Positions 11,187 to 24,959 of a stretch of 64,000 bases of DNA are shown here, one piece after another. The DNA comes from Schmidtea polychroa (lineage: Eukaryota). Positions within the stretch are counted from its first letter, which is position 1. Each line of letters starts with the position of its first letter. The translations under genes were made by a program, and so were the position numbers. Where the stretch lies: positions 55,552,001 to 55,616,000 of the forward strand of contig CM097887.1 of NCBI GenBank assembly GCA_044892525.1, given 5' to 3'. Below the pieces are notes generated by a model. The model saw nothing but the letters and a program-made list of their open reading frames with translations. It searched no databases and was not told where the DNA came from.

Positions 11187-11454
11187 AGTAGTGTATAAAC
11201 CTTGCACCTGACCACCCCCACCCCTTAAAGATCACCAAATCCATACCTTTCCATACCTTTAAAAATTACACTTTTATATAAAAATCTAACAGTTTTTTCA
11301 AGTCTTTTCATCCTTTTCACCCTATATTTTCAAAAACAACCACCCTCTTGTGTTGAATTATGGAAGGGAAGCTCTTAAAAAGGGAGTTGTGGATCGGGTG
11401 CAAGGTTTATACACTACTATATAGCAAGTAGCGCAGTTTGCTAATTTATAAATA
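11187..11454 (+). repeat. Left Polinton TIR (268 bp)
   Basis: Reverse complement of 24692-24959 with 3 mismatches counted by eye. The MCP ATG follows at 11460. Confidence 0.95.
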
Positions 11455-11459
11455 AAAAA

Positions 11460-12776
11460 ATGAATAATATAAATCTTGAGATTTCAGAAAAAAATAAATT
11501 AAATCTTGATTACAATAAAGAGTTTATGCATAAAATTAAAAAAATCGATGTTTTAAAAATATCCCCTACGTCAGGATCGATTGCAAATTTAAATCGTGGA
11601 GGAGATATAGTTTTTCAATCCCTTCAAACCTCAAACCCTGTAGATATTTGTAATGCGAGATTATATTATAAAATTGAATTAGAAATTGAAGCAAACAAAG
11701 ATATAACTCTAGAAAACAATTTCTTTCCAAACTTATTTAATAACATGAGATTAAAACTAGGATCATCAGAAATTGAAACTATTTTATATCCAGGAATATA
11801 TTCTACAATGTTAAATTTTATTTTAACTGGTTGTGATTATAAAAATGAAAGTGGAGAATTAACAGGTTGGATTCCTGATACTAATAAAGGTGATTTAGAT
11901 AAAGATGGTTTAGATATAAATTATGGATATTATAAAAGAGTAGAACTTTATAAATCTAAAAAATTTGAGGGTTATTTTGAATTAAAACACTTATTTGGAT
12001 TCCTTCAAAACTATAACCGAGTACTTCATAATGTTTTTATAGAATTAATATGTAATAGAAAAGAAGATGATAAAACAATATTCTATGGAGCTGCAGATAC
12101 AAAAGCTAAATTAAAAATATCAACACTTGAATTACATATACCTGAATGGACTTTAAATCCTCAATCTGAAATCAAACTCCTTGAAAGATTAAATTCCAAC
12201 AAATCTATAATTGTAAATTATTTAAATAGAATCTGTAGTGAATTTAGTATGACAGAGGGTTCAACATATTCTATAAAGGTAGCAAATTTAGCATACCGAC
12301 CGAGACATATCTTAATTGGATTCAAAGAAACAGATTCATCTTTCCAAAAAAATAACAACTTGTTTATTCAAAAGATTGGAAATGACAATTTAAAATCAAT
12401 ACAAATTCAATTAAATAATTCTTATTATCCAATAAATAGAATGGAATTTAATATTGAAAATAATGAAAACATATTCCCATATCTGAATTATATTGAAACA
12501 TGTTATGATTTTAAAGTTAAACCACAATTAAGTTTAGAAGATTTCAAAAATTTATATTCTATATTTTGTATAAATGTATCAGATCAAGATGATCGTCTAG
12601 CTATAAATAATGTTGATGTTACACTTCATATAACAAAGGATTCTAATTTTAAAGCTAAAGTATATACGTTAATATTAGAAGAAAAGAAAATAGAAATGAA
12701 ATTATATGGTGGAAAGATTTCAATAATCGAAAATGTACGAGGTGATAATATCTCTATAAAAAATGTCTCTAAATAA
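11460..12776 (+). CDS. Polinton major capsid protein (double jelly-roll, PY-like), 438 aa, intact
   Basis: LENNFFPNLFNNMRLKLGSSEIETILYPGIYSTM; FEGYFELKHLFGFLQNYNRVL; IQIQLNNSYYP; YSIFCINVSDQ. Size and genomic context fit a Polinton MCP. Confidence 0.85.
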   Translation: MNNINLEISEKNKLNLDYNKEFMHKIKKIDVLKISPTSGSIANLNRGGDIVFQSLQTSNPVDICNARLYYKIELEIEANKDITLENNFFPNLFNNMRLKLGSSEIETILYPGIYSTMLNFILTGCDYKNESGELTGWIPDTNKGDLDKDGLDINYGYYKRVELYKSKKFEGYFELKHLFGFLQNYNRVLHNVFIELICNRKEDDKTIFYGAADTKAKLKISTLELHIPEWTLNPQSEIKLLERLNSNKSIIVNYLNRICSEFSMTEGSTYSIKVANLAYRPRHILIGFKETDSSFQKNNNLFIQKIGNDNLKSIQIQLNNSYYPINRMEFNIENNENIFPYLNYIETCYDFKVKPQLSLEDFKNLYSIFCINVSDQDDRLAINNVDVTLHITKDSNFKAKVYTLILEEKKIEMKLYGGKISIIENVRGDNISIKNVSK

Positions 12777-14148
12777 ACCATATTGGAAATGTGAAATTTG
12801 TAATTGTCAAGTTAGAAAACATCATAAAGCAAGTCATGTTAAAACTAAAAAACATACATCTCGATTGGGTGGTGATCTTCAATCTTCAAAAACAACATCT
12901 TCGATATTGAAACCCTTTACTACTAAAAAATATCCAGGTGAAAGACATTTATTCCATCACAATTTTACTGCACCTGGAACAAGATTAGATATTAGACTTG
13001 ATGAAAATAATAATCCCAAACCTGGAGAAGAACCAGTGAATAGAATTGATCAAGCGGCTTTAAAACATGATATTGCTTACAATTCTGAAGACCTTAGGGA
13101 TAGACACCTTGCAGATGTTAATTTAATACATGATTTAAATAATATAGAAAATCCTTCAACCCAGGAAAAGATTCAAGCAGGACTAGTGAAATTAGCAATG
13201 AAAGGTAAGATCTTCTTTGGAGCTGGACACCCTAGAATAGCAAAAGATATTGCTATTAAAAAGATTATTCAACAAACAGAGATTGAGAATCAACTCGAGA
13301 GTGCATCCAAGACTAGTTTATTATTCCCAACAGAATCACAAATAAAATATGCCAATGAATTACACCATGAATTTAGAAAAAATAAAAAATATTTAAAAGT
13401 TCAAGTACATGAAAAAGATCAAACATGGTCTGCAGATTTAGTCTTTATGCCAACCAAATCATCAGACCCTGAAAAATATAAAATAATTTTAACAGTAATA
13501 GATTTATATACAAGATTTGCTCTTGCAAGATGTTTAGAAAATAAAACAGGATATTCTATTACAGAAGCATTTGAAAATATATTTGAAGAACATCAAAGAA
13601 TTCCAAAATATTTATGGTGTGATAAAGGAACAGAATTTTATAACAAAGTTTTTACAAAGTTTTTAAATGAAAATGATATTAAATTATATTCAACAGAAAA
13701 CGAAGGAAAAGCAGTCGTAGTTGAAAGATTAAATAGAACATTAAAAAATAAAATGTAGAAATATTTTACTGCTATTGGAAAACAAAAATGGAACAATGAA
13801 TTGTTACAAAAGATTGTAAATGAATATAATAATGATGTACATAGTTCTATAAAATCAACACCTTTAAATGCTTCCTTGAATCCTTTTAAACTTATAAATC
13901 CTTTGATGAATCCTGAAACCGTTAAAGTGGTAAATGAAAAACCAAAGTTTAAAATTGGTGACCGAGTAAGAATATTTAAATATAAAAATAAATTTGAAAA
14001 AGGATTCACAGCAAAATGGACAAATGAAATTTTTATTATAAATAAAATACATTATACAACTCCAACAACATATAGCATCATTGATTTAAATAATGAAAAA
14101 ATATTAGGTAGATTTTATAATAATGAACTACAGAGATCAAGCTTTTAA
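12763..14148 (+). pseudogene. C2H2 Zn-finger + parvovirus-type PLA2 + retroviral-type (rve) integrase fusion, with one in-frame stop at 13756-13758
   Basis: Zn finger CEICNCQVRKHHKASHVKTKKH; PLA2-like HNFTAPGTRLDIRL...PVNRIDQAALKHDIAY...RHLAD; integrase WSADLVFM...LTVIDLYTRF...LWCDKGTEF...AVVVERLNRTLKNKM*KYFT. ORF 13801-14148 is in the same frame, so the TAG probably replaces TGG (Trp). Confidence 0.9.
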
Positions 14149-15339
14149 AACAAACTTTTCCATATTTCAGCCTCTTCTCTATCCAAATAAATATAATTAT
14201 ATTTTTCTTTCCAATGATTATCTACAAACATATCAAACATTTGCTTATCAGGTTCAACATTTGAAAATAAATCACTATAAATCATATTCTTATCACGCTT
14301 TTCTAATTTAAAAAAATATAAAACAATTGGAATTATTTCTTATAGAGTTTTTATCTAAAGCATAATAGGTTTGAGATATATAAATAACATTACAATTATT
14401 ATGTCGACCTCGTGTAAAGTAACTCTTTTGAATCTTTTGATTTTTCATGTTGACGACATCATCAAATATAACTAGATTCTTTTTATCTTTAGGAAGTAAA
14501 TCACAATGTAAAACATCTTCAGATTTATTAGAGAATAAAACTTGGATCCCTTCGGAGACGTAATCACTTTTATTATCAATATCTGATTCTAAAATCTTTT
14601 CCTTGTACCAATCAATCATATCACAAGGGTGAAAAACCTCATCAGGACATCTATGTTGGTTTTTATATCAAACATTTGCTTATCAGGTTCAACATTTGAA
14701 AATAAATCACTATAAATCATATTCTTATCACGCTTTTCTAATTTAAAAAAATATAAAACAATTGGAATTATTTCTTATAGAGTTTTTATCTAAAGCATAA
14801 TAGGTTTGAGATATATAAATAACATTACAATTATTATGTCGACCTCGTGTAAAGTAACTCTTTTGAATCTCTTGATTTTTCATGTTGACGACATCATCAA
14901 ATATAACTAGATTCTTTTTATCTTTAGGAAGTAAATCACAATGTAAAACATCTTCAGATTTATTAGAGAATAAAACTTGGATCCCTTCGGAGACGTAATC
15001 ACTTTTATTATCAATATCTGATTCTAAAATCTTTTCCTTGTACCAATCAATCATATCACAAGGGTGAAAAACCTCATCAGGACATCTATGTTGGTTTTTA
15101 AAAATATCAATTATAGCCTTTTTAGTTAATTTATTTTCAAATCCACATTTCAAAAGTTGTAACTCTGGTTGGTTTATGGTTGTGGAATAAAAGATTAAAT
15201 TATTATAATCTAAAAAACCATCTTCTAGTAATATTCTCAAAAGAAGTACATTCTTTCCACATCCCGAAGAATTATCAGGAAATACTTTATTATTAAATTT
15301 ACTCTTGTGCCGAGTTAAAATCGGATTCCAAGTATCCAT
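14146..15339 (-). pseudogene. Polinton packaging ATPase (A32/FtsK-like), disrupted
   Basis: Walker A-like SSGCGKN, Walker B LVIFDDV, and YFTRGRHNNCNVIYISQ. An extra T in a T7 run creates CFIFF*; removing it gives KLEKRDKNMIYSDLF...IWKSLF*. There is also a 435-bp internal tandem duplication. Confidence 0.88.
14230..15099. repeat. 435-bp direct tandem duplication inside the ATPase gene (14230-14664 and 14665-15099)
   Basis: The two copies are identical by eye except one SNP (NQKIQK vs NQEIQK). Confidence 0.93.
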
Positions 15340-15354
15340 TTTATTTATTAAAAA

Positions 15355-15991
15355 ATGACAACTGAAGAATCTTTAAAGGAATTAATAAATTCAAACAAGA
15401 GTAAATCAGTAGTAATTAATGGTAAAAAATACTTTATTGGAAAACATGTAAAAGAACAAGTTAAGAAGAGAATGAAGGAGTCTTCGACTACGAAAGGAGG
15501 TATTCTTCCATTAGCGGCTTTAATACCTGCAATCATTGCAGGTTTATCAGGTGCTGCTGGAATAGCTGGCAAAATTGCAAGTACAGTTCAAAAATCTAAA
15601 GAATCTCAAAAGACAGACTTGGAAAAAGAAAAACTACAAACTGAAATCGATTCAATGAAAAAGGGTAAGGGTTTATATCTCAATCCTTATGAAGGTAGAG
15701 GGTTATATCTCAATCCATATAAGGGTCGAGGCTTAAATGATTTTTTAAAAAATCAAATTTTAAAAGATTAATCTTTATCATCAAAAGATAAGGATGATTT
15801 AAAAAAAATGTGTAAGTCTTTAAAGAAAGGATGTCTTTGTAAACTTGGAGGAACTCCCCAGAAAAAAAGGTAAGGGTTTATATTTACAAGCTGTTGAGTC
15901 TGAAGAAGAAGAAGAAGAAGAAGAAGAAGAGTCCGAAAGTCAAATAGAAGAAGAGTCTGAAGAAGAAGAGTCTGAAGGTCAAATATGGTAA
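15355..15991 (+). pseudogene. Adenovirus pX/pVI-like core or membrane-lytic precursor with repeated GxG-LYL motifs and an acidic tail
   Basis: GGILPLAALIPAIIAGLSGAAGIAGKIAS; GKGLYLNPY, GRGLYLNPY, GRGL. The frame continues past TAA (15769-71) as SLSSKDKDDLKK...CKLGG, and after removing one A from an A7 run it reads GKGLYLQAVESEEEEEEEEE...QIW*. Confidence 0.7.
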
Positions 15992-16006
15992 ATTGAGGGT
16001 ATAAAA

Positions 16007-16828
16007 ATGGTATTCGAAGAAAGATTAGGACTTTTAAAAAAATTACAGTTAGAACAAGATAATTATAATATAAAAGATACGACTCAACGCTCTCAATCTT
16101 TAGCATTAAATACTGCAATGACTCAACAACAACAGCAACCAATAATTAAAGCTATAGAAGCCATAAAGAGTGAAGGTCCTAAAGCTATAGAAGGACCAAG
16201 TATTAAAGCCATAGAAGGACCAACCGAAAAGTCTGTCGAAAGGAATCAAGGAAAACGTAGAAAACTCTCAGGTGTGGAAGAAGAAATACTTTCAAATACA
16301 AAACCTCTTAAAGTTGATCTTCAAACTAGAGAGTGTTTATCTGATTCAATTAAAACTATATTTAATATTACTCCTGAAGGATATCAAATTATAACAATTA
16401 ATAAACAAAACTTTACTTTATATATAAACTCTGAAGGTAAAAATCGTATTCATTCTCAAAATGTTTATAATAATGAATATTTAGACTATGAATTTACAGA
16501 TGATTTTTATAGATTAATTTGTGGATATCCTTCAGATGATGTTAAAGAAATTGAAAAATATTTAAATTTTATAAAATTAATAAATGGTAGTACAAAAGCT
16601 AAACACATTCAAGATTTAAAGAATTATTTAAATAAAAATGAAAGGGGTTATGTTGTTAAAGAAGGTGAGGGACTAGATCCGATCTCTAAGTTTATAGAAT
16701 TGAGAAAACTATTAGCCGCTAAAAAAGCAGGACATAATAATTTAGATCCTGATATTTTAAAGATTTCAAAAGATTTATTAAAACAAAGAATGCTTTCAAA
16801 ACGTAAATTTAATAAATATATAAAATGA
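16007..16828 (+). CDS. Conserved Polinton hypothetical protein, 273 aa
   Basis: Contains KAIE(GP) repeats and a C-terminal GEGL...ELRKLLAAKKAGHNN motif resembling a conserved Polinton ORF. It sits upstream of the protease. Confidence 0.6.
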   Translation: MVFEERLGLLKKLQLEQDNYNIKDTTQRSQSLALNTAMTQQQQQPIIKAIEAIKSEGPKAIEGPSIKAIEGPTEKSVERNQGKRRKLSGVEEEILSNTKPLKVDLQTRECLSDSIKTIFNITPEGYQIITINKQNFTLYINSEGKNRIHSQNVYNNEYLDYEFTDDFYRLICGYPSDDVKEIEKYLNFIKLINGSTKAKHIQDLKNYLNKNERGYVVKEGEGLDPISKFIELRKLLAAKKAGHNNLDPDILKISKDLLKQRMLSKRKFNKYIK

Positions 16829-17295
16829 AGAGTCTGGGGGTATTGGATTTTTTAAAAACATTTGGAATAAATGCAAAAACAAATTTTGATTTAAAAGATT
16901 ATGCAGATTATTTAAATTTAAAAATTAAAATATTAATGAATGATGAATTGTTGAGTCTGAAGGGTTTGAAGGATAATATAATAATAAATTATCAAAATTC
17001 AAATGAAAAAGGATCTCATTGGGTTTGTATATATGGGGGACCTTCGGACAAGGATGGAGGAGTCCCTATCTACTTTTATTCTTTTGGGATTAAACCTACT
17101 AAAGAAGTAGAAGATTATCTCTCGAAGAGTTCCCCGAAAGGCTACACCTTTAATTCTTTACAAGTTCAACCTAATAATACTAAAATATGTGGGGTTTTAA
17201 GTTTATATGTTTTATATAGATTAAACAATGACAGTGTTCAAGATTTCAAGGGGATAATCCAAGAAATTTATAAAGATTTAAAACCTCTACTATAA
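16825..17295 (+). CDS. Adenain-like cysteine protease (Polinton PRO); the catalytic Asp appears mutated
   Basis: IINYQNSNEKGSHWVC (His); YFYSFG where YFDSFG is typical; QVQ...ICG (Gln, Cys). Confidence 0.85.
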   Translation: MKSLGVLDFLKTFGINAKTNFDLKDYADYLNLKIKILMNDELLSLKGLKDNIIINYQNSNEKGSHWVCIYGGPSDKDGGVPIYFYSFGIKPTKEVEDYLSKSSPKGYTFNSLQVQPNNTKICGVLSLYVLYRLNNDSVQDFKGIIQEIYKDLKPLL

Positions 17296-17296
17296 A

Positions 17297-18043
17297 ATGG
17301 AAGATAATTTAAAAAAAATGGTAAACATAATGTCGATTAAATATTCAAGAAGTTTATTAATAAATTCAAAAGAATCAGATTTTACTATAAACTTTGAAGA
17401 TTCTATAAATTTAGATCAAGATTTAAATTATGAACTAGGACTCTTGTGGTTTAGCTGTTTTAATACTATTTTTAATATTAATACTGATAATAATAAATTT
17501 GAAATAATAACGAGGATTGATCCGATTCCTAAAATTATAACAATCGAACCAGGATCATATGAAATAACAGATTTAGGTAAAGCAATTAAAAAAGAAACAG
17601 ATGGAGCTATAGAAATAAAAGTAGATGTTCAAACTTCAAAATGTATTGCAACTTTAAAAGATATTCAACTTCAGGTTACTGCTTCTAGTTTCCTTCATAC
17701 TATTTTAGGTTTTGAAGCCAGAGAACATCTACAACTAACAACAAGAACTATTAAATCTAAAAATATTATACAAATAACAAATACAAATTCTATAAATATA
17801 GAATGTGATTGTATAACAGGTTCATATAATAACGGTAAACATGCAAATATTTTATATTCCTTTCCTTCTAATGTTGTTCGAGTTGGATATAAAATGGTTG
17901 AAAGAATGAATCCCCCAAATTATTTACCTTTATGTAGAAAAAACCTAATGGATATTCATTTTAGAATTGTTGATGAAGATGGAAAGCTAATTGACTTTAA
18001 TGGTGAAAGGATTACAATGTATTTACATTTGAAACAAGTCTGA
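17297..18043 (+). CDS. Polinton minor capsid protein (penton, single jelly-roll), 248 aa, intact
   Basis: YELGL...NTIFNINTDNNKF...IEPGSYEI...ILGF...INIECDCITGSYNNG...ILYSF...FRIVDEDGKLIDFNGE. Confidence 0.85.
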   Translation: MEDNLKKMVNIMSIKYSRSLLINSKESDFTINFEDSINLDQDLNYELGLLWFSCFNTIFNINTDNNKFEIITRIDPIPKIITIEPGSYEITDLGKAIKKETDGAIEIKVDVQTSKCIATLKDIQLQVTASSFLHTILGFEAREHLQLTTRTIKSKNIIQITNTNSINIECDCITGSYNNGKHANILYSFPSNVVRVGYKMVERMNPPNYLPLCRKNLMDIHFRIVDEDGKLIDFNGERITMYLHLKQV

Positions 18044-18078
18044 AAGTCATTCTGAAGGTCTATGTTTATCCTATAAAA

Positions 18079-19005
18079 ATGAATTATAATAAGTTGGGGT
18101 TGTACAATGATGGACTAAAAGATGAAGATGTTATAACCCTTACAGAAAAGAGATTTATTAATGAAAAAGGAGATTCAATGAAGGGCGATTTAAATTTAAA
18201 TGCTCACAAGATAAAAGATTTAGGTCCTCCGATTGATGACTTTGATGCAACTAATAAAAAATATGTTGATGGTGTTAAAAATTATACTGAATCCAAGCTT
18301 AATAATATCGAACAACGATTTAATGATAAATTTGACAAGTTACAAAGTTTGTTAACTGAACAAGTTGTAAAGTTAAATACTACCATATTACAACTTATGG
18401 ATAATAAATTTAATACAATATATAATATAATAAATGAGATGATTGCATCATTTAATGCAAGACTTGTCAAATTAGAGTCTCATACAACACACATTAACAC
18501 AACACACACCATTAGAAAAAGAGCTGCTGAATTAGAACAGAATAATACATTATTACCCCATACATATAAACATTTTATAGAACCAACTTTAATAATAACA
18601 AATAGTAAAGAATGGTCTTGTTTTATGGTTGTAAAGATTATTGATCCTTATTTCTTTTTATTTAATGATGATGGTGAAACAATGAAATGGTTTGTAAAAT
18701 GTGATTATAATAGTAAGTTTGAAAAGGATGAAGTTATAATAACTGGTTATGATTTACCACATGGACATTGGCATGATAAAACTGATTCACATAAAACACA
18801 TAAAGTTAAAAGTAAGAATATTATTTTTAAAAGTAAACTTGTAAATTATATAGATTTAATATTTTATGAAAAAAAGGTTGATGTTGATGAAGTTCGTAAA
18901 GCGTTGATAGAATTGTCCAGGAGGTCAAGTAGTACAATATCCAAAGATAGAGGGACTTCGTCCAGAGGTTCCAAAGGCTGTCGCATCTGCTCCTACAGAA
19001 CTTGA
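18079..19005 (+). CDS. Putative fibre/spike-like protein, 308 aa
   Basis: GDSMKGDLNLNAHKIKDLGPPIDDFDATNKKYVD resembles phage tail-fibre shaft repeats. It is followed by a heptad coiled coil and a globular C-terminus, and lies directly after the penton gene. Confidence 0.5.
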   Translation: MNYNKLGLYNDGLKDEDVITLTEKRFINEKGDSMKGDLNLNAHKIKDLGPPIDDFDATNKKYVDGVKNYTESKLNNIEQRFNDKFDKLQSLLTEQVVKLNTTILQLMDNKFNTIYNIINEMIASFNARLVKLESHTTHINTTHTIRKRAAELEQNNTLLPHTYKHFIEPTLIITNSKEWSCFMVVKIIDPYFFLFNDDGETMKWFVKCDYNSKFEKDEVIITGYDLPHGHWHDKTDSHKTHKVKSKNIIFKSKLVNYIDLIFYEKKVDVDEVRKALIELSRRSSSTISKDRGTSSRGSKGCRICSYRT

Positions 19006-19513
19006 AGTCATGAGGGTGAAAGAATATAAATCAGAGACTTTACATTGAAAGGACTTGCTTCGTCATTATAAAAAAATTAAAAAAAGATGGAATAATGGGA
19101 ATACAGCTTTAAAGATTATAGGTTACTCCTTGGGATTTATATCTGCAATACTTACAATTGTTTTGCCAATAACCCTACCGGCTATTACTCTTGCACCCGT
19201 AATCATTGGAAGTATTTCTGTAGCTGATTCTTTCTTGACTGAAATAGTTTCTTTATCCTATACTTCAAAAAAGAAAAGCTTATATCGTGAAGTTTGTCTG
19301 GCAATCGACTTGGGGATATCTAAATTATTTTTATTTCAGATGAAAGCCATGGAGGATGGAATCCTAACAGATGAGGAAATAATGAAATCAAATCAAATAA
19401 TCCAAGATATTAAAAATTAAGTTATAAAGTTGAAAACCACAAAGGTTAAAGCTGATAAATATTCTAACAAGGAATACCGAGAGAAATGGTTGAAGGAGAA
19501 GACTTCGACGTAG
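18911..19513 (+). pseudogene. Polinton two-TM-helix protein (putative membrane-active), with in-frame stops at 19046 and 19418
   Basis: YPKIEGL...RVKEYKSETLH*KDLLRHYKKIKKRW, then a hydrophobic hairpin, then SKLFLFQMKAMEDGILTDEEI. The frame stays open on both sides of ORF 19055-19420. Confidence 0.6.
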
Positions 19514-19537
19514 ACCTATATAATTTTTAAATTAAAA

Positions 19538-19738
19538 ATGAATTCCAGATTGAATGATTTTAGAAGTTTATCATTAGAGGATAAACTTAGAATAGGTGAA
19601 AAGTGTTACATCTTTTATCTTGTAAGAATTAAAGACCGTGATCTTTTAAATAAAATAACTAAATTTAAATATTTAAGCATACAAGACCAAATTGGAAGAG
19701 GAGAATACTATTTTGCTTTATTCCCTCAACTATTTTAA
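19538..19738 (+). CDS. Small hypothetical Polinton protein (66 aa)
   Basis: Has an AAAAATG start context like neighbouring ORFs. No recognised motif. Confidence 0.35.
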   Translation: MNSRLNDFRSLSLEDKLRIGEKCYIFYLVRIKDRDLLNKITKFKYLSIQDQIGRGEYYFALFPQLF

Positions 19739-19748
19739 TTTTTTAAAA

Positions 19749-20186
19749 ATGGATGGCTTTATAAAAAAAATTGAACAGCTTTCAATGATTGACCCTTTAA
19801 TTTTAAACAAGATTCAACAAAAAGAGAAGGCTTTTGAATTTGCAAGATTAAAGAGTTAAAACCCTAAAATGAATCAAAGTGAGATTTGTAAAATAATCGG
19901 GACTTCAGACTCGACGATGAGACGAATTAGAAAGGATTTAGGAATTGACTCTCCCTATAGGCATACAGGCAAGAAGAAAAAGACTAAAGAGACCAAGGGT
20001 TTTTATTGTAAGGATTGTTCAAGTACTGTACTTGATAAAAACCATCAATGCGTCAAGTCTAAAAAGTATCAAAGACAAAAGAAAGATCCTTTAGCCTCCG
20101 GGCCAGACCATTCTGAAGTCTCTACGACTGAAGATGTTGAAGATATTTTAGATCGAACTAGTATCATGTTTAAAAACTTTAAATAA
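19749..20186 (+). pseudogene. Helix-turn-helix protein with one in-frame TAA at 19857
   Basis: MDGFIKK...RLKS*NPKMNQSEICKIIGTSDSTMRRIRKDLG. The upstream ATG at 19749 is in frame with ORF 19869-20186. Confidence 0.6.
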
Positions 20187-20453
20187 ATGGACGAACGTGT
20201 TTTAAACTTGATAAAAAGTGATCCCATCATTAAAAAGGAATCAAGTATTGCATTAAAAGAATATAATGAGAAATCCCCAGAGGATAAAGCCCTGCAAGCC
20301 GCGCAACTTGCTATTCGAGAGCCTGTACTTCTCTGGATTATAAATGATTTAGAGATTCAGTTGATGAAAATCAATAAAGAGATTAAAACCAGAAAGACTT
20401 TAGCCAAGGCAAACCGAGAGAAAATAAAAGAGAAAATAGAAAAGAGGTTATAA
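20187..20453 (+). CDS. Small coiled-coil Polinton protein (88 aa)
   Basis: Abuts the preceding stop codon. Helical, Lys/Glu-rich. Confidence 0.4.
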   Translation: MDERVLNLIKSDPIIKKESSIALKEYNEKSPEDKALQAAQLAIREPVLLWIINDLEIQLMKINKEIKTRKTLAKANREKIKEKIEKRL

Positions 20454-20587
20454 CTATAAAAGTAAAAATTTTTATTATTGAAACAGATGGTCGATTCAAA
20501 CCTTTAATAATATCATTTAAAAATGTTTTGGATAAAAGGACTTTGTCATCTGTTAAAGACTTTAAGTTTTCAAAAATGGATCGCATT

Positions 20588-23500
20588 TCAGTCATTTTTA
20601 AGCATTAAGAATGAGATTTCATCATCGATGACTGAATGGTCTATTGGTATTGGGTTTCTAACTTGATTGTATAGTGGTTTTTGTTCAAGGTGTAATTTAA
20701 AATATTTATCCTTGGGTCTTTCAGGGTATATAATTACAACTTTACTTAGTTGAATATCTGTGATGTTTGTACCAAACAAACCTTTCATATATGGGATCAA
20801 ATCATTCCCTATTGGAAGTGTTGTTTTCAAATCACTCAGTATACATCGCTTATCATCATAATTTGATAATGATATTTTGTTTGATTCTTCTAAATACATG
20901 TTATGCTTCTCAGATTTAAGTTGATGTACCTCAACTATTTTATCCTCATAATTTATATTCAGTGAATCTTTATAATCCTAATGAGTAATTGTTTTCGATA
21001 CTGATTTCTGTATTCCTTTACTTTTATTATCCTTGGAGGTTTTTACATATGGAGTTATTATAGGTCGATCAAATGTATAGTCTATTATTTCCCCTGTTCC
21101 TATCCTGATTTTAATTGTTTGGCTTATCATCTTCGGGGCTTCAATCATTTCAAGTGAATATTGTTTGGCCCTAATAAATACAGCATCGGTTATTGGTGTA
21201 TTTGGTTTTTCATCTTTAAAGGTGAATAATTCTCCAGATGAATTTATTAAATTCCTTAGGATTTTATTTTCGGATATTTCCTTTTTTAGGTTTTTAGTAT
21301 ATATTTTTAAAAACATACTGTCGGTATCCATTGCGTGCATAGATATTCTATCTTTAAAATGTGGTACTAGAATATCATAATAGGTTTCATACATTTGTAA
21401 CTTGGACAGTTCTAAAATGCTAAAACCTATAAAGATTGGTTTGTTATAAGTCTTTTCACTATTTTTTAGTTCAACGGCCACAAGGTTCTTGGAGAATACT
21501 TCTGCATTTTTAAATGTAGGTTTCCCAAGCATTCGATTATACCTTGCAAAATCCTTTCGAGTATTTGTTAATAATTCTACACGAGTATATTTGTCAACAT
21601 TTTCCATTGTCTTTCCAAAAACTGCATTATTTAAAAGTTTATAAATCATGTCGAGGAAAGCGTTTCCATTTCTTTTTGCTTCGTTTCTTTTTCTAATATT
21701 TCCCTCTATAAAGGGTTTCATGAATGGGGCTTGTTTGAATTTTATAATAGAGTGAACATTTTTTAAAACCATTCCATGTGAAAGATAAAATTGTAACAGT
21801 CGATAGTGACAAAGGTAATAGGTTTTATCAGTTTGGTCACATAAAAGTTTTGTAGTTGTAGGTCTATTTTGTTCAATCTGCCAAGGTAAAAGTTCATTGA
21901 TATCTATTTTTCTTTTCACAGGTGCAAACGGAAAGTATCTAGTTGAAGATTTTATATCATCTGGGTATTCTAGATCACACTCTATAACATATCCTATTTC
22001 TGAATCCTTTTCAGTTGATAATATTTCATTCAAAAGGTTTTCTAGCTCATGCTTTTCCTCTGGGAGAGGAATGCAGGTGAAGCCTCCAATTGGTAAATAT
22101 CGAGTCATTACTCCTCCATATAGAGCGGTTGCATCAACATAAACTATTTCACATGGGTCAGATAATCCTTCCTTTATTAATTTAGAATCCTGTTTTGTTT
22201 TTATTTGTATATAGTTTGCATTTGAATCTTTAAAGAATTTCTTATGTAGGGATTGGAAGTTGTTTGCAGTGATTTCCCGATCTCCCATTACTGAACTAAC
22301 ACCCCCACGATTATTTTCTTTAAATAGATTAAACACATCAAGATCAACTAATAGTTCTATGGACTGAGAGGACTCCTTCCATATAGTATATAATAAAATA
22401 TCCCAAGCTAGAGATGGAGCTGTTATATAGTTATAGGGTTTTAATTCAAATGCCTTGCAAAATCCCTCGAAACAATCTGCTAGGATATAAACATCAAGGG
22501 ATAAATACATGTCAGTATAATCCCCCATATTTTTACATTTGAAAAGTTCCCACATTTTATTAGCTCGGGCATATTCCTCATCGCTTATACCTACTTGTTG
22601 CAGTTTTGAAAAAAACAAGTCTTGACCTGGTAAAGTGGTTTCATTATATCTATCAAATGAGTTGATGTAATCATAAGGATAGATTCCTTTAGCCAAACAG
22701 GTTTTATATTCCTCCAGGGGAATATTATTTTTTTCTAATACCTTTTCAATTGTATGCTCAAAGTCTTCAGGTTTCATGGTTTTTGAAATCCCATCTAGTG
22801 ACATTCCTAAAAAGTTTATATTCTTCCCATTGTTGATCTGAGAAGTTTATCGGATAGTTTGTTTTTAAAGTTTTAAAAAGTTTATGTTCTAAATCATTTA
22901 TGTCTTTTGTAAAATGATCTAGAGTTTCTTCTTCTGAGGATCCTCGATATGAATATTCTTCTGATTTAATGAGGTCGGGGTAATTACTTTTAAAGAATAA
23001 TTTGTAAGCTGAAGGCATTTGTTTTGTTAATTTTATTGTGTAAGATTTTTTATTTAACCTTAAAAAGTTTTTCATACTCTCCAATCCTGTTGATTTGAGA
23101 TTGTTCCAGGAATCTAATAGATTATTTTTTTCTATTATTTTTAAATATTCTTCCTCTAAATCTTGTTTTATGTTAATCGCCTCAAAGTCTCCGATTATTG
23201 CACCTAATGATTCTAGTAAGTTTGAAAAGTTTTTAAAATGCATGCTGGCCTTTTCCTTGCTTGGCATTTTAATTAAAGCTGCTTGGTTTTTCCTACACAA
23301 TCTTTCATGCTTAATTGCTGATAATCTAGATGTTGAATAGTGAAGACATCTTTTACATGTTATCCCACCTCTAACCTGAGTTTTTGATCGCATAAAACCT
23401 TGAAAGTTTTTTATGAGAATATAGTGTTGTTTTCTTTCAATCTCTTGTATATTTTCAATATTTAAATCTTGTTCTGTGAGAGTTTGAATATCTTCTCCAT

Positions 23501-24638
23501 CTTCTTCTGTTGGGGCTTTATATTCTGCTTCTTCTAATATTAAAAGATCTATTTCACGGTTTTTATCTTGATCTAATAATTCTTTATTTGAAATGTAGAT
23601 TGGAATGATATGTTTCTTAAAACCATAATGTTTATGGTGAATATATTCATAAACATTAATTTTAACATTATTCAAGATTTCAAATGTTGGTATATCTTTA
23701 ATTTTCATTGTATGTTCAAAATCTTCTAGATATCTCAACTCATCCTCATAGGGTTTGTATTTTGATACTCTTTGAGGGTTTGTAGCTTGTGGATGTAAAT
23801 GTGCCAGGACTGCCCATTGAAAACATTTGTTATCACTATTTTCTACGTTTATAACACAGTTTGAACGAAAGGGTGTAGGGATGTATGATTTAGGACTTGG
23901 AGGTGCTGCTCTCCAATATTCTATTTGTATATTTTGAAATGAATGGAATCTTAAATCCGATTCCCCTAATTCTTGTTCTTGAGCTTCTTGAACTTCATGA
24001 ATCATATCATTAATAATTTTATTAATCCCTTTAGTTGAATGCAAATATTTATATGATGTTTCGATATAAGAGTCTAAAGGAACTGTATTTACATCTTCTC
24101 CTCTCCAATATCTAGCCAGGATTATAATTTTATATTTTATAATATTAAATCTCGATTTGCCAAATTTCTTTATAGCATCATCCATTGAATTTTTTATATT
24201 TTGTTTGTTTTTCTTTACATATTCCGAGGCTGATGAATCTTTAAATATTTCTTCAAATATATCTATATGATTAAAGTTGTCCCAATTATATTTTTCTTTT
24301 TCAATATGTTCAGGTTCTTCTTCTTCATAGACTTCTTCCTTATCGCTTTCTATATTCTCTATTGTACATTTTTTTAGATGTTTTATATAATAAGATTCTA
24401 TAGATGTTTTAAAATTACATATACCACATTCGAATTTTTTTCTAATTTTAGGAATACCAATACAATTTATAAAATGTCGATCGTATCCAGAAAGTAAAAA
24501 TCTTTCTTTACATTTAGTACAAATTTTTGAGTTGGTGTTATTTAGTTGGTTGGTTTTTAATAAATGAGCTTTTGATCTTTGATGAGATATTAATGCTGAT
24601 CTATTTTTAAAAGTTTTTTCACACGCTTCACAATTCAT
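20588..24638 (-). pseudogene. Protein-primed family B DNA polymerase (pPolB) with N-terminal Zn fingers; internal deletion/frameshift near 22800 and a TAG at 20978-80
   Basis: YIPTP...CVINVENSDNKCFQWAV; KGIYPYDY; YLSLDVYILADCFE; YVDATALYG (motif A); KLLNNAVFGK (motif B); MDTDS (motif C); ISLSNYDDKR. ORF 20588-20899 is in frame with 20978-22804 across a single TAG. Confidence 0.93.
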
Positions 24639-24691
24639 TTTTTAAAAATATTTTTTTATTGGAGTGGGGTGTTTTGAATTTTTAAAATATA

Positions 24692-24959
24692 TATTTATAA
24701 ATTAGCAAACTACGCTACTTGCTATATAGTAGTGTATAAACCTTGCACCCGATCCACAACTCCATTTTTAAGAGCTTCCCTTCCATAATTCAACACAAGA
24801 GGGTGGTTGTTTTTGAAAATATAGGGTGAAAAGGATGAAAAGACTTGAAAAAACTGTTAGATTTTTATATAAAAGTGTAATTTTTAAAGGTATGGAAAGG
24901 TATGGATTTGGTGATCTTTAAGGGGTGGGGGTGGTCGGGTGCAAGGTTTATACACTACT
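24692..24959 (-). repeat. Right Polinton TIR (268 bp)
   Basis: Inverted copy of 11187-11454. The pPolB ATG is at 24638, just inside. Confidence 0.95.

What the first reader, a model, noticed from the sequence alone, without database searches (positions are those of the whole stretch)
11187..11418. Each Polinton TIR is itself a mini-element: the 22-bp terminus recurs inverted ~210 bp inside
Seen: AGTAGTGTATAAACCTTGCACC (11187-11208) has a perfect reverse complement at 11397-11418, and the right TIR mirrors this (24728-24749 and 24938-24959). The element therefore has four terminus-like sites. Established: Polinton termini serve as both the integrase attachment site and the protein-primed origin. 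Inference: each 232-bp module could fold into a panhandle, flip, excise as a MITE, or provide an internal, oppositely oriented origin. I do not know of this as a standard Polinton feature.
Basis: partly seen in the sequence, partly recalled or inferred. Interest (0 to 1): 0.7.

Follow-up and report, generated by a model that had tools for sequence, protein, structure and literature searches.

The report
Polinton ends with built-in fold-back stems
Each end of this virus-like jumping element (a Polinton) carries a mirror copy of its own first 22-28 bases about 200 bases inside, and across many subfamilies the two copies change together, so the end likely folds back on itself during DNA copying, although some abundant subfamilies have lost the inner copy.

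Summary
Real and family-wide. The four 22-mers are exact and lie in the 268-bp TIRs of a decayed 13.8-kb Polinton/Maverick. Module-like pairs number 280 and 2,235 in two size classes, against 72 and 78 in controls. In 86 modules the inner copy matches its own terminus (97.7% at positions 8-22; 51% for permuted pairs) over 21 different perfect 22-mers, and identity drops at base 28. That points to base pairing and templated copying, not a fixed binding site. A distant element (MCP 32% identical) has the same design (L159). The MITE and flip ideas fail: no solo module among 94, no flipped junction against 1,453 normal ones. The inner copy is dispensable: a young subfamily with 942 termini lacks it. 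Some TSD-flanked copies have unrelated left and right ends. Best reading: an accessory local mini-panhandle that likely rebuilds a duplex origin at each end; untested. Ten paper searches found no description; Repbase was not available. The scan noted a similar end once before in this genome (e1-9997940).

The parts
11187..24959 (.). Decayed Polinton/Maverick element, 13,773 bp, (AGT)2...(ACT)2 ends, no TSD in this copy
11187..11454 (+). Left TIR, 268 bp
   Evidence: 265 of 268 identical to the right TIR
24692..24959 (-). Right TIR, 268 bp
11187..11208 (+). Left outer terminus (true end; integration site in sister copies)
   Evidence: TSDs at the outer sites of sisters
11397..11418 (-). Left inner inverted copy of the terminus; ends exactly opposite base 1
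11187..11418 (.). Left 232-bp module (stem, about 180-nt loop, stem); predicted stem-loop on either strand
11214..11224 (+). C-rich box after the outer copy only (module positions 28-38); marks the outer/inner asymmetry
   Evidence: position 29 is C in 85 of 86 outer copies; inner-outer identity falls from 0.85 at position 27 to 0.16 at 28
24728..24749 (+). Right inner inverted copy
24938..24959 (-). Right outer terminus
24728..24959 (.). Right 232-bp module, same orientation relative to the end as the left one
11460..12776 (+). Double jelly-roll major capsid protein, 438 aa, first gene inside the left TIR
   Evidence: PF21738, E 5e-26
12763..13758 (+). PLA2-like domain plus rve integrase ORF; the frame ends early and a further ORF follows at 13906-14148
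   Evidence: PF08398, PF00665
14743..15339 (-). Packaging-ATPase-like ORF; a 435-bp tandem duplication repeats part of it at 14308-14619
   Evidence: PF04665, E 3e-4, below the curated cut-off; repeat D10
15355..15771 (+). Protein X-like ORF
   Evidence: PF05829, E 1.4e-3, below cut-off
20588..24638 (-). Protein-primed B polymerase region, broken into three ORFs (22767-24638, 20978-22804, 20588-20899)
   Evidence: PF03175, E 1.3e-11, on the middle ORF

Best explanation
Each end of this Polinton family carries an inner mirror copy of its first 22-28 bases that changes in step with the terminus, and the two copies likely pair into a local stem-loop when the DNA is single-stranded during protein-primed strand-displacement copying. 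On a displaced strand, the 3' terminus would pair with the inner copy about 200 nt away and so rebuild a short double-stranded core origin at that end alone, without pairing to the other end 14 kb away. Initiation there would give a genome with the module in its normal orientation, which fits the absence of flips. The same pairing would allow occasional template switching that copies one arm onto the other and keeps them identical. The device is accessory: lineages that lose it can still multiply. Shown: the sequence design, covariation, fixed orientation, dispensability and mismatched ends. Predicted: the fold. Inferred: the origin role and the copying route.
For: (1) Covariation. 68 of 86 modules are perfect over 22 bp, with 21 distinct perfect 22-mers up to 14 bases apart. 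Own-pair identity at positions 8-22 is 97.7% against 51% permuted (maximum 60% in 2,000 permutations); with one module per distinct terminus it is 95.6% against 49%. Free variation with exact matching is what pairing or copying gives. (2) Sharp limits. The inner copy stops opposite base 1 and identity collapses at base 28; the commonest perfect stem is 27 bp (35 of 86) although module length varies from 126 to 287 bp. (3) Fixed orientation: 0 flipped junctions against 1,453 normal. (4) Copies with perfect TSDs and unlike ends: L077/L078 share 13 of 27 terminal bases, have no long-range inverted repeat by self-BLAST, and each end has its own perfect 27-bp stem; L090/L112 share 23 of 27, each inner copy following its own terminus. 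(5) The strand whose 3' end is the terminus folds more stably in 14 of 17 sequence clusters; the first mismatch beyond the stem is a G-T wobble on that strand in 11 of 17 and on the other strand in 0 of 17. (6) Same design in L159, MCP 32% identical. (7) A single-stranded 'racket-like' Polinton intermediate is the standing model (PMC4196379, passages); template switching is a known way to homogenise inverted-repeat arms (PMC8604942, passages).
Against: No biochemical or extrachromosomal data. The inner copy is not needed for spread: a subfamily with 942 termini lacks it; 9 of 9 such elements lack it at both ends, 8 of 9 have perfect TSDs, and they are 96.4-98.6% alike. A second small subfamily (10 termini) also lacks it. 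An abundant subfamily carries fixed mismatches (17-18 of 22) in many copies, so the arms are not corrected in every cycle. Mismatched ends also occur with an inner-less end (L204/L205), so they do not need the stem; they were hand-picked, so no rate follows, and each may be a fresh recombinant that never replicated as such. The 86 modules were selected at 17 or more of 22 matches, which inflates identity; among 32 loci picked by their capsid gene, 23 had a module (15 of 20; 8 of 12). The wobble bias is confounded by the C/A-rich outer arm and by shared ancestry. The template-switch cases in PMC8604942 have spacers of 70 bp or less, far shorter than this loop. A full-TIR panhandle is available to most copies and would be more stable.
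Confidence: 0.5

Rival explanations
1. Self-priming hairpin. The 3' terminus folds onto the inner copy and primes synthesis without terminal protein, as parvovirus ends do, giving snap-back or palindromic dimers. This could restart replication of a freshly excised copy.
For: The geometry allows it: the 3' end pairs to the last base with template continuing inward. An earlier unchecked note reports a giant Polinton palindrome in this genome folded at such an inner copy (e1-9997940); I did not test it.
Against: Nick-and-transfer resolution predicts flips, and an integrated fold-back product predicts inner flank joined to the outer-type arm. That junction was found 0 times against 1,453 normal ones and 0 times in a second subfamily. 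None of the 85 modules oriented by flank had the inner flank on both sides. No HUH/Rep nickase family among 16 ORFs scanned.
Confidence: 0.15
2. Second protein-binding site or internal origin. The inner copy binds the polymerase-terminal-protein complex or the integrase in the opposite orientation, as a decoy, an enhancer of end synapsis or a source of short 230-bp replicons.
For: It keeps the full AGTAGT slide-back motif. Three loci carry a third, degenerate copy further in (L033, L034, L040), as does L159. The subfamily without a full inner copy has short motifs repeated in both orientations instead.
Against: A protein site would tolerate differences between the two copies and conserve the same positions between subfamilies; here positions 8-22 vary widely yet match within each module. 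The inner site lacks the outer C-rich box. No integrated solo module was found.
Confidence: 0.15
3. Function-free by-product. An old copy-back accident placed the terminus inside the TIR, and recurrent template switching keeps the arms alike without any benefit.
For: Lost at least twice by deletion in successful lineages (L136/L141/L143 share one deletion, L145 has another). Fixed mismatches are tolerated.
Against: Kept in most lineages sampled (23 of 32 capsid-picked loci), at similar spacing (202-287 bp in 85 of 86) while the loop sequence diverges widely, and present in an element with a 32% identical capsid (L159).
Confidence: 0.17
4. Mobile cassette. The module is a MITE-like mini-element or an invertible segment, and the Polinton is a composite flanked by two of them.
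For: The integrase accepts tiny or odd substrates: two TSD-flanked minis of 171 and 232 bp exist (L072, L076), and modules of different types are combined in single copies.
Against: Both minis have two outer-type ends and are near-palindromes, so they are internal-deletion or fold-back products, not solo modules. 0 solo modules among 94; 0 flips against 1,453; the TIR continues 36 bp beyond the module.
Confidence: 0.03

Closest known systems
Polinton/Maverick elements (PMC8097293, PMC10748475: passages; Alpha-type adintoviruses, PMC8502044: passages)
   Same: pPolB, rve integrase, DJR capsid, ATPase-like, PLA2- and protein X-like genes; (AGT)2//(ACT)2 ends; 6-bp TSDs; TIR length within the reported 46-1,447 bp.
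   Different: The passages read describe only a conserved 6-bp end motif; none mentions an inner inverted copy of the terminus, covariation of the two, or copies without matching TIRs. Those surveys found elements by their TIRs, so TIR-less copies would be missed.
Racket/panhandle model of Polinton replication (PMC4196379, passages citing Kapitonov and Jurka; the 2006 paper was not held) and the adenovirus ITR panhandle (recalled)
   Same: A single-stranded intermediate rebuilds a duplex origin by base pairing; the 22-28-bp stem is about the size of a core origin (adenovirus about 18 bp, recalled).
   Different: There the two genome ends pair with each other; here each end has its own partner about 200 nt inside.
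Parvovirus/AAV terminal hairpins (recalled)
   Same: The 3' end can fold onto an internal complement that is perfectly maintained.
   Different: No flip/flop here, no Rep nickase found, a loop of about 180 nt with no conserved inner palindromes seen, and a protein-primed polymerase is encoded.
Streptomyces linear-replicon telomeres (recalled, not checked)
   Same: Terminal-protein-capped ends whose 3' strand folds back on an internal complementary stretch within the first 200-300 nt.
   Different: Several short palindromes and end patching after internal initiation; bacterial; no integrase.
Inverted-repeat arm homogenisation by template switching (PMC8604942, passages)
   Same: One arm is copied onto the other and multi-base changes appear together.
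   Different: Described for spacers up to 70 bp and accompanied by spacer inversions; here the spacer is about 180 nt and no inversion was seen.
IR/DR ends of Tc1-like transposons such as Sleeping Beauty (recalled)
   Same: A second copy of the terminal site about 200 bp inside each TIR.
   Different: Those inner sites are direct repeats for transposase binding and need not match exactly; here they are inverted and matched base for base.

Membership tests
Polinton/Maverick | Protein-primed family B polymerase | tested here: met
   PF03175 above cut-off on 20978-22804; gene broken in this copy
Polinton/Maverick | Retroviral-like integrase | tested here: met
   PF00665 above cut-off
Polinton/Maverick | Double jelly-roll major capsid protein | tested here: met
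   PF21738, E 5e-26
Polinton/Maverick | Packaging ATPase, maturation protease, minor capsid protein | tested here: inconclusive
   ATPase hit below cut-off; no Pfam hit for the ORFs at 16825-17295 and 17297-18043; not pursued
Polinton/Maverick | TIRs of about 50-1,500 bp with (AGT)2//(ACT)2 end motif | tested here: met
   268 bp, 3 mismatches; motif as in PMC8097293
Polinton/Maverick | 6-bp TSD, family level | tested here: met
   19 of 22 end pairs and 8 of 9 further elements
Polinton/Maverick | 6-bp TSD, this copy | tested here: not met
   3 of 6 bases match. The copy sits in a degenerate AT-rich tandem repeat, so later loss is likely; it is filed as a decayed copy of a family whose other copies meet the test.
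MITE / composite-transposon cassette | Solo module (outer plus inner end) flanked by a TSD | tested here: not met
   0 of 94 modules; the only two TSD-flanked minis are outer-outer palindromes. Sample drawn mostly from contig C1.
Invertible segment / AAV-type ITR | Both orientations (flip and flop) of the loop | tested here: not met
   0 against 1,453; 0 in a second subfamily; all 86 oriented modules have the outer type at the host side (6 of them oriented by hand)
Parvovirus-type rolling-hairpin replicon | HUH/Rep nickase gene | tested here: not met
   No such Pfam family in 16 ORFs scanned
Protein-primed origin (inner site) | Terminal-protein-primed initiation at the site | not testable with these tools
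   needs biochemistry

The most novel reading that the evidence does not exclude
These Polintons replicate from self-contained stem-loop origins, one per end, instead of an end-to-end panhandle. That frees the two ends to be swapped independently, giving full-length TSD-flanked elements with no TIR at all, and could let the polymerase start on an integrated, protein-free copy whenever that end is briefly single-stranded: a route out of the chromosome without excision. The design may be widespread and overlooked because surveys select on matching TIRs.
Probability: 0.2. Interest if true: 0.82.

Novelty: new variant of a known kind. Interest (0 to 1): 0.62.

Why it matters
How integrated Polintons get out of the chromosome and replicate has only been modelled. 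A terminal stem maintained base for base across at least 21 sequence variants is a natural compensatory-mutation series that names the structure and gives ready substrates for an initiation assay. Sister lineages with and without the inner copy provide a built-in comparison. Full-length copies with unrelated ends show that matching TIRs are not required for integration, so TIR-based surveys undercount these elements.

Tried and rejected
Assembly artefact: rejected. Solo MITE and flip: rejected as above. Relatives in viral contigs: four protein scans and one DNA pattern found nothing. Metagenome scan: 35 loci; only 1 of 35 (L159) showed the design, and most of the others are short fragments with no recognisable terminus, so they say nothing either way. 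No RNA holder listed for the stretch. A second read-laying on an abundant module type gave no answer, so flips in read data remain unexamined; no strand-change joint was listed, but one locus in contigs is a weak test. Partner-end searches: 7 of 20 singles gave a partner with a 5-6 base TSD match and one more on inspection (that end lacks its last three bases); the rest lay outside the fetched stretch or were truncated. In one search, 2 of 3 candidate mixed-end pairs had a TSD, and the seven further singles gave no clear mixed pair. Strand-specific wobble test: suggestive but confounded. Literature: ten searches found no description of an inner inverted terminus in Polintons. Kapitonov and Jurka 2006 was not held; Repbase and most subscription papers were not searchable. 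PMC11296320 and PMC8363768 (passages) and PMC11161782 (abstract, outline, passages) had nothing on this feature. One search timed out and was redone more simply.

Full report
Observation. The 22-mer occurs four times exactly, at the coordinates given; 100 shuffles gave none. The TIR is longer than the module: 268 bp with 3 mismatches. The module of 232 bp is its outer part. Both strands of the module are predicted to close a terminal stem (DNA parameters, z = -6.17 and -5.28, 0 of 200 shuffles as stable); the centroid structures keep the stem and little of the loop. Contigs of three public runs cover the host-terminus junction and the loop up to the inner site. They come from one study and may be the source sample, so the recurrence at many loci is the stronger argument against an artefact.

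The element. Between the TIRs lie a double jelly-roll capsid gene, a PLA2-like plus rve integrase ORF, ATPase-like and protein X-like ORFs, and a protein-primed polymerase broken into three ORFs. This is a decayed Polinton/Maverick with an Alpha-adintovirus-like gene set (PMC8502044, passages). This copy has no TSD, but 19 of 22 hand-picked end pairs have a perfect 6-bp TSD at the outer sites, so the outer AGTAGT is the integration end. The host is an AT-rich animal genome (G000, 781 Mb); an earlier AI note calls it a planarian (e1-9906165), which I did not test.

How common. The exact 22-mer has 17 sites in G000, all in modules of 221-232 bp. The capsid gene has at least 96 copies above 91% identity, most with other terminal sequences. 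A loose pattern for the two end motifs gave 280 hits at 210-240 bp (control 72) and 2,235 at 241-271 bp (control 78). Among loci picked by their capsid gene alone, 15 of 20 and 8 of 12 had a module. Of the 9 without, 7 show a terminus with no inner copy at 17 or more of 22 matches, 1 shows a terminus with no inverted end motif in the stretch read, and 1 had no terminus in the 2 kb read.

Covariation. I detected 94 modules in loci L001-L125 and the window (threshold 17 of 22 matches) and dropped 8 before counting: 4 ends that duplicate another locus with its flank, 2 of uncertain orientation and 2 palindromic minis. In the remaining 86, 68 are perfect over 22 bp, in 21 distinct sequences up to 14 bases apart. 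Identity between a terminus and its own inner copy at positions 8-22 is 97.7%, against 51% for permuted pairs (maximum 60% in 2,000 permutations); with one module per distinct terminus (32) it is 95.6% against 49%. Identity is 0.95-1.0 up to position 24, 0.84-0.88 at 25-27 and 0.16 at 28. The threshold inflates the absolute figure but cannot produce 21 different perfect stems. Positions that are free to change between subfamilies but must match within a module point to base pairing or templated copying rather than recognition by a fixed protein (inference). After the stem only the outer copy carries a conserved C-rich box, so the two sites are not equivalent.

Solo modules: none of the 94 is an outer-plus-inner module between host flanks. 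The two TSD-flanked minis found (L072, 171 bp; L076, 232 bp) have two outer-type ends and are near-palindromes. The sample is mostly from contig C1 and is not exhaustive. Flips: in the most abundant module type the flipped junction occurs 0 times against 1,453 normal ones, and 0 times in a second subfamily whose normal count I did not measure. The same junction would mark an integrated fold-back product.

Results against necessity. One subfamily with 942 termini shows, among the first 100 sites listed, only one pair at module distance. Nine such elements read in full lack the inner copy at both ends; 8 of 9 have perfect TSDs, they are 96.4-98.6% alike, and 2 of 9 keep a 1,439-codon ORF. L199 has the same terminus with a perfect 28-bp inner copy, and L136, L141 and L143 share one deletion while L145 has another, so the loss looks derived and repeated. 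A second, small subfamily also lacks the module. A third, abundant one has fixed mismatches between the arms. The inner copy is therefore accessory, and correction between arms is episodic.

Mixed ends. L077/L078 is a full-length element with a perfect TSD whose ends share 13 of 27 terminal bases; self-BLAST finds no long-range inverted repeat, and each end has its own perfect 27-bp stem. L200/L201 (14 of 27), L090/L112 (23 of 27) and L204/L205 (24 of 27, one end without inner copy) are similar. These show that integration does not need matching TIRs and that the inner copy tracks its own terminus, not the far one. They were picked as candidates, and each could be a recombinant that integrated without replicating further.

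Beyond this genome. Of 35 metagenome loci with a related capsid gene, one, L159 (32% identity, different gene order), begins with an AGTAGT-started 21-bp sequence that is inverted 150 bp inside. Only 15 bases of flank are present and the other end is missing, so its status as a terminus is likely, not shown. The other loci mostly lack termini. Viral-contig scans found nothing.

Mechanism. In strand-displacement replication the displaced strand must present a double-stranded origin at its 3' end; in the standing model this comes from end-to-end pairing (PMC4196379, passages; adenovirus, recalled). Here the 3' terminus has a partner about 200 nt away. Pairing would rebuild a 22-28-bp duplex origin locally, and initiation on it would return the module in its normal orientation, matching the lack of flips. 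The same fold allows one arm to be copied onto the other (PMC8604942, passages; its cases have spacers of 70 bp or less). The strand whose 3' end is the terminus folds more stably in 14 of 17 clusters, and the first mismatch past the stem is a G-T wobble on that strand in 11 of 17 against 0 of 17 on the other (97 modules, 11 added); base composition and shared ancestry weaken this. I give this reading 0.5, hairpin self-priming 0.15, a second protein site or internal origin 0.15, a function-free by-product 0.17 and a mobile cassette 0.03.

Known or new. Passages of PMC8097293, PMC10748475 and PMC8502044 describe TIRs, 6-bp end motifs and TSDs but no inner inverted terminus. Ten searches found no such description. 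Kapitonov and Jurka 2006 was not held, Repbase was out of reach, and the supplements seen gave no TIR sequences, so a mention in print or in Repbase notes is not excluded. The parallels to AAV, Streptomyces and Tc1 IR/DR ends are recalled, not checked. This scan noted a similar end once before on another piece of the same genome, with a giant palindrome apparently folded at the inner copy (e1-9997940; unchecked). It raised my weight on hairpin priming slightly, while my junction searches in two subfamilies found no such product. Notes e1-7907718 and e1-8145795 report mirror-image Polinton derivatives in this genome; I did not test them.

Verdict. A real, family-wide and apparently undescribed variant of Polinton end structure: a compensatorily maintained terminal stem with fixed orientation, dispensable in some young lineages. 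It is not a MITE and does not flip. Interest 0.62; novelty: new variant of a known kind.

Noticed in passing
G000:C1:35081761-35096021 (L077+L078): A 14.26-kb element collinear with the window's, with a perfect 6-bp TSD but no long-range inverted repeat: the two ends are unrelated module types. Similar mixed ends: L200/L201, L090/L112, L204/L205.
   Followed up: partly
L072:633-803 and L076:561-792: TSD-flanked minis of 171 and 232 bp made of two outer-type ends; near-perfect palindromes.
   Followed up: partly
L181-L198, L136, L141, L143, L145, L199: A young subfamily with 942 termini has deleted the inner copy; in most of the nine elements read the TIRs are long (about 0.9-1.2 kb). L199 has the same terminus with a perfect 28-bp inner copy, so the loss looks derived.
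   Followed up: yes
L049, L056, L126-L133: A small subfamily with a near-identical capsid gene but short ends that lack the module and instead carry a short GC-rich motif repeated in both orientations, giving 8-18-bp subterminal inverted matches in 6 of 10 ends.
   Followed up: partly
L033, L034, L040, L159:220-243: A third, degenerate inverted copy of the terminus about 80-105 bp further inside.
   Followed up: no
L075: An outer terminus carrying the inner-type base at position 28, a possible inner-to-outer conversion tract; single case.
   Followed up: no
L120:3202-7444: A 4.2-kb TSD-flanked derivative with 167-bp modules of another sequence type, nested in another Polinton.
   Followed up: no
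window:11191-11207 and equivalents: Most terminus variants keep a small dyad, GTG-N11-CAC, inside the stem while the 11 inner bases vary (seen by eye).
   Followed up: no
window:7400-8857: Remnant of a SPIN/hAT-like transposase (Spin-doc zinc finger, PF18658) upstream of the element.
   Followed up: no
window:14230-14964: Perfect 435-bp-period tandem duplication inside the ATPase-like gene.
   Followed up: no
G000:C1:165719459-165734195: Two capsid genes in opposite orientation about 13.5 kb apart, possibly a copy-back or mirror-image element like those in earlier notes.
   Followed up: no
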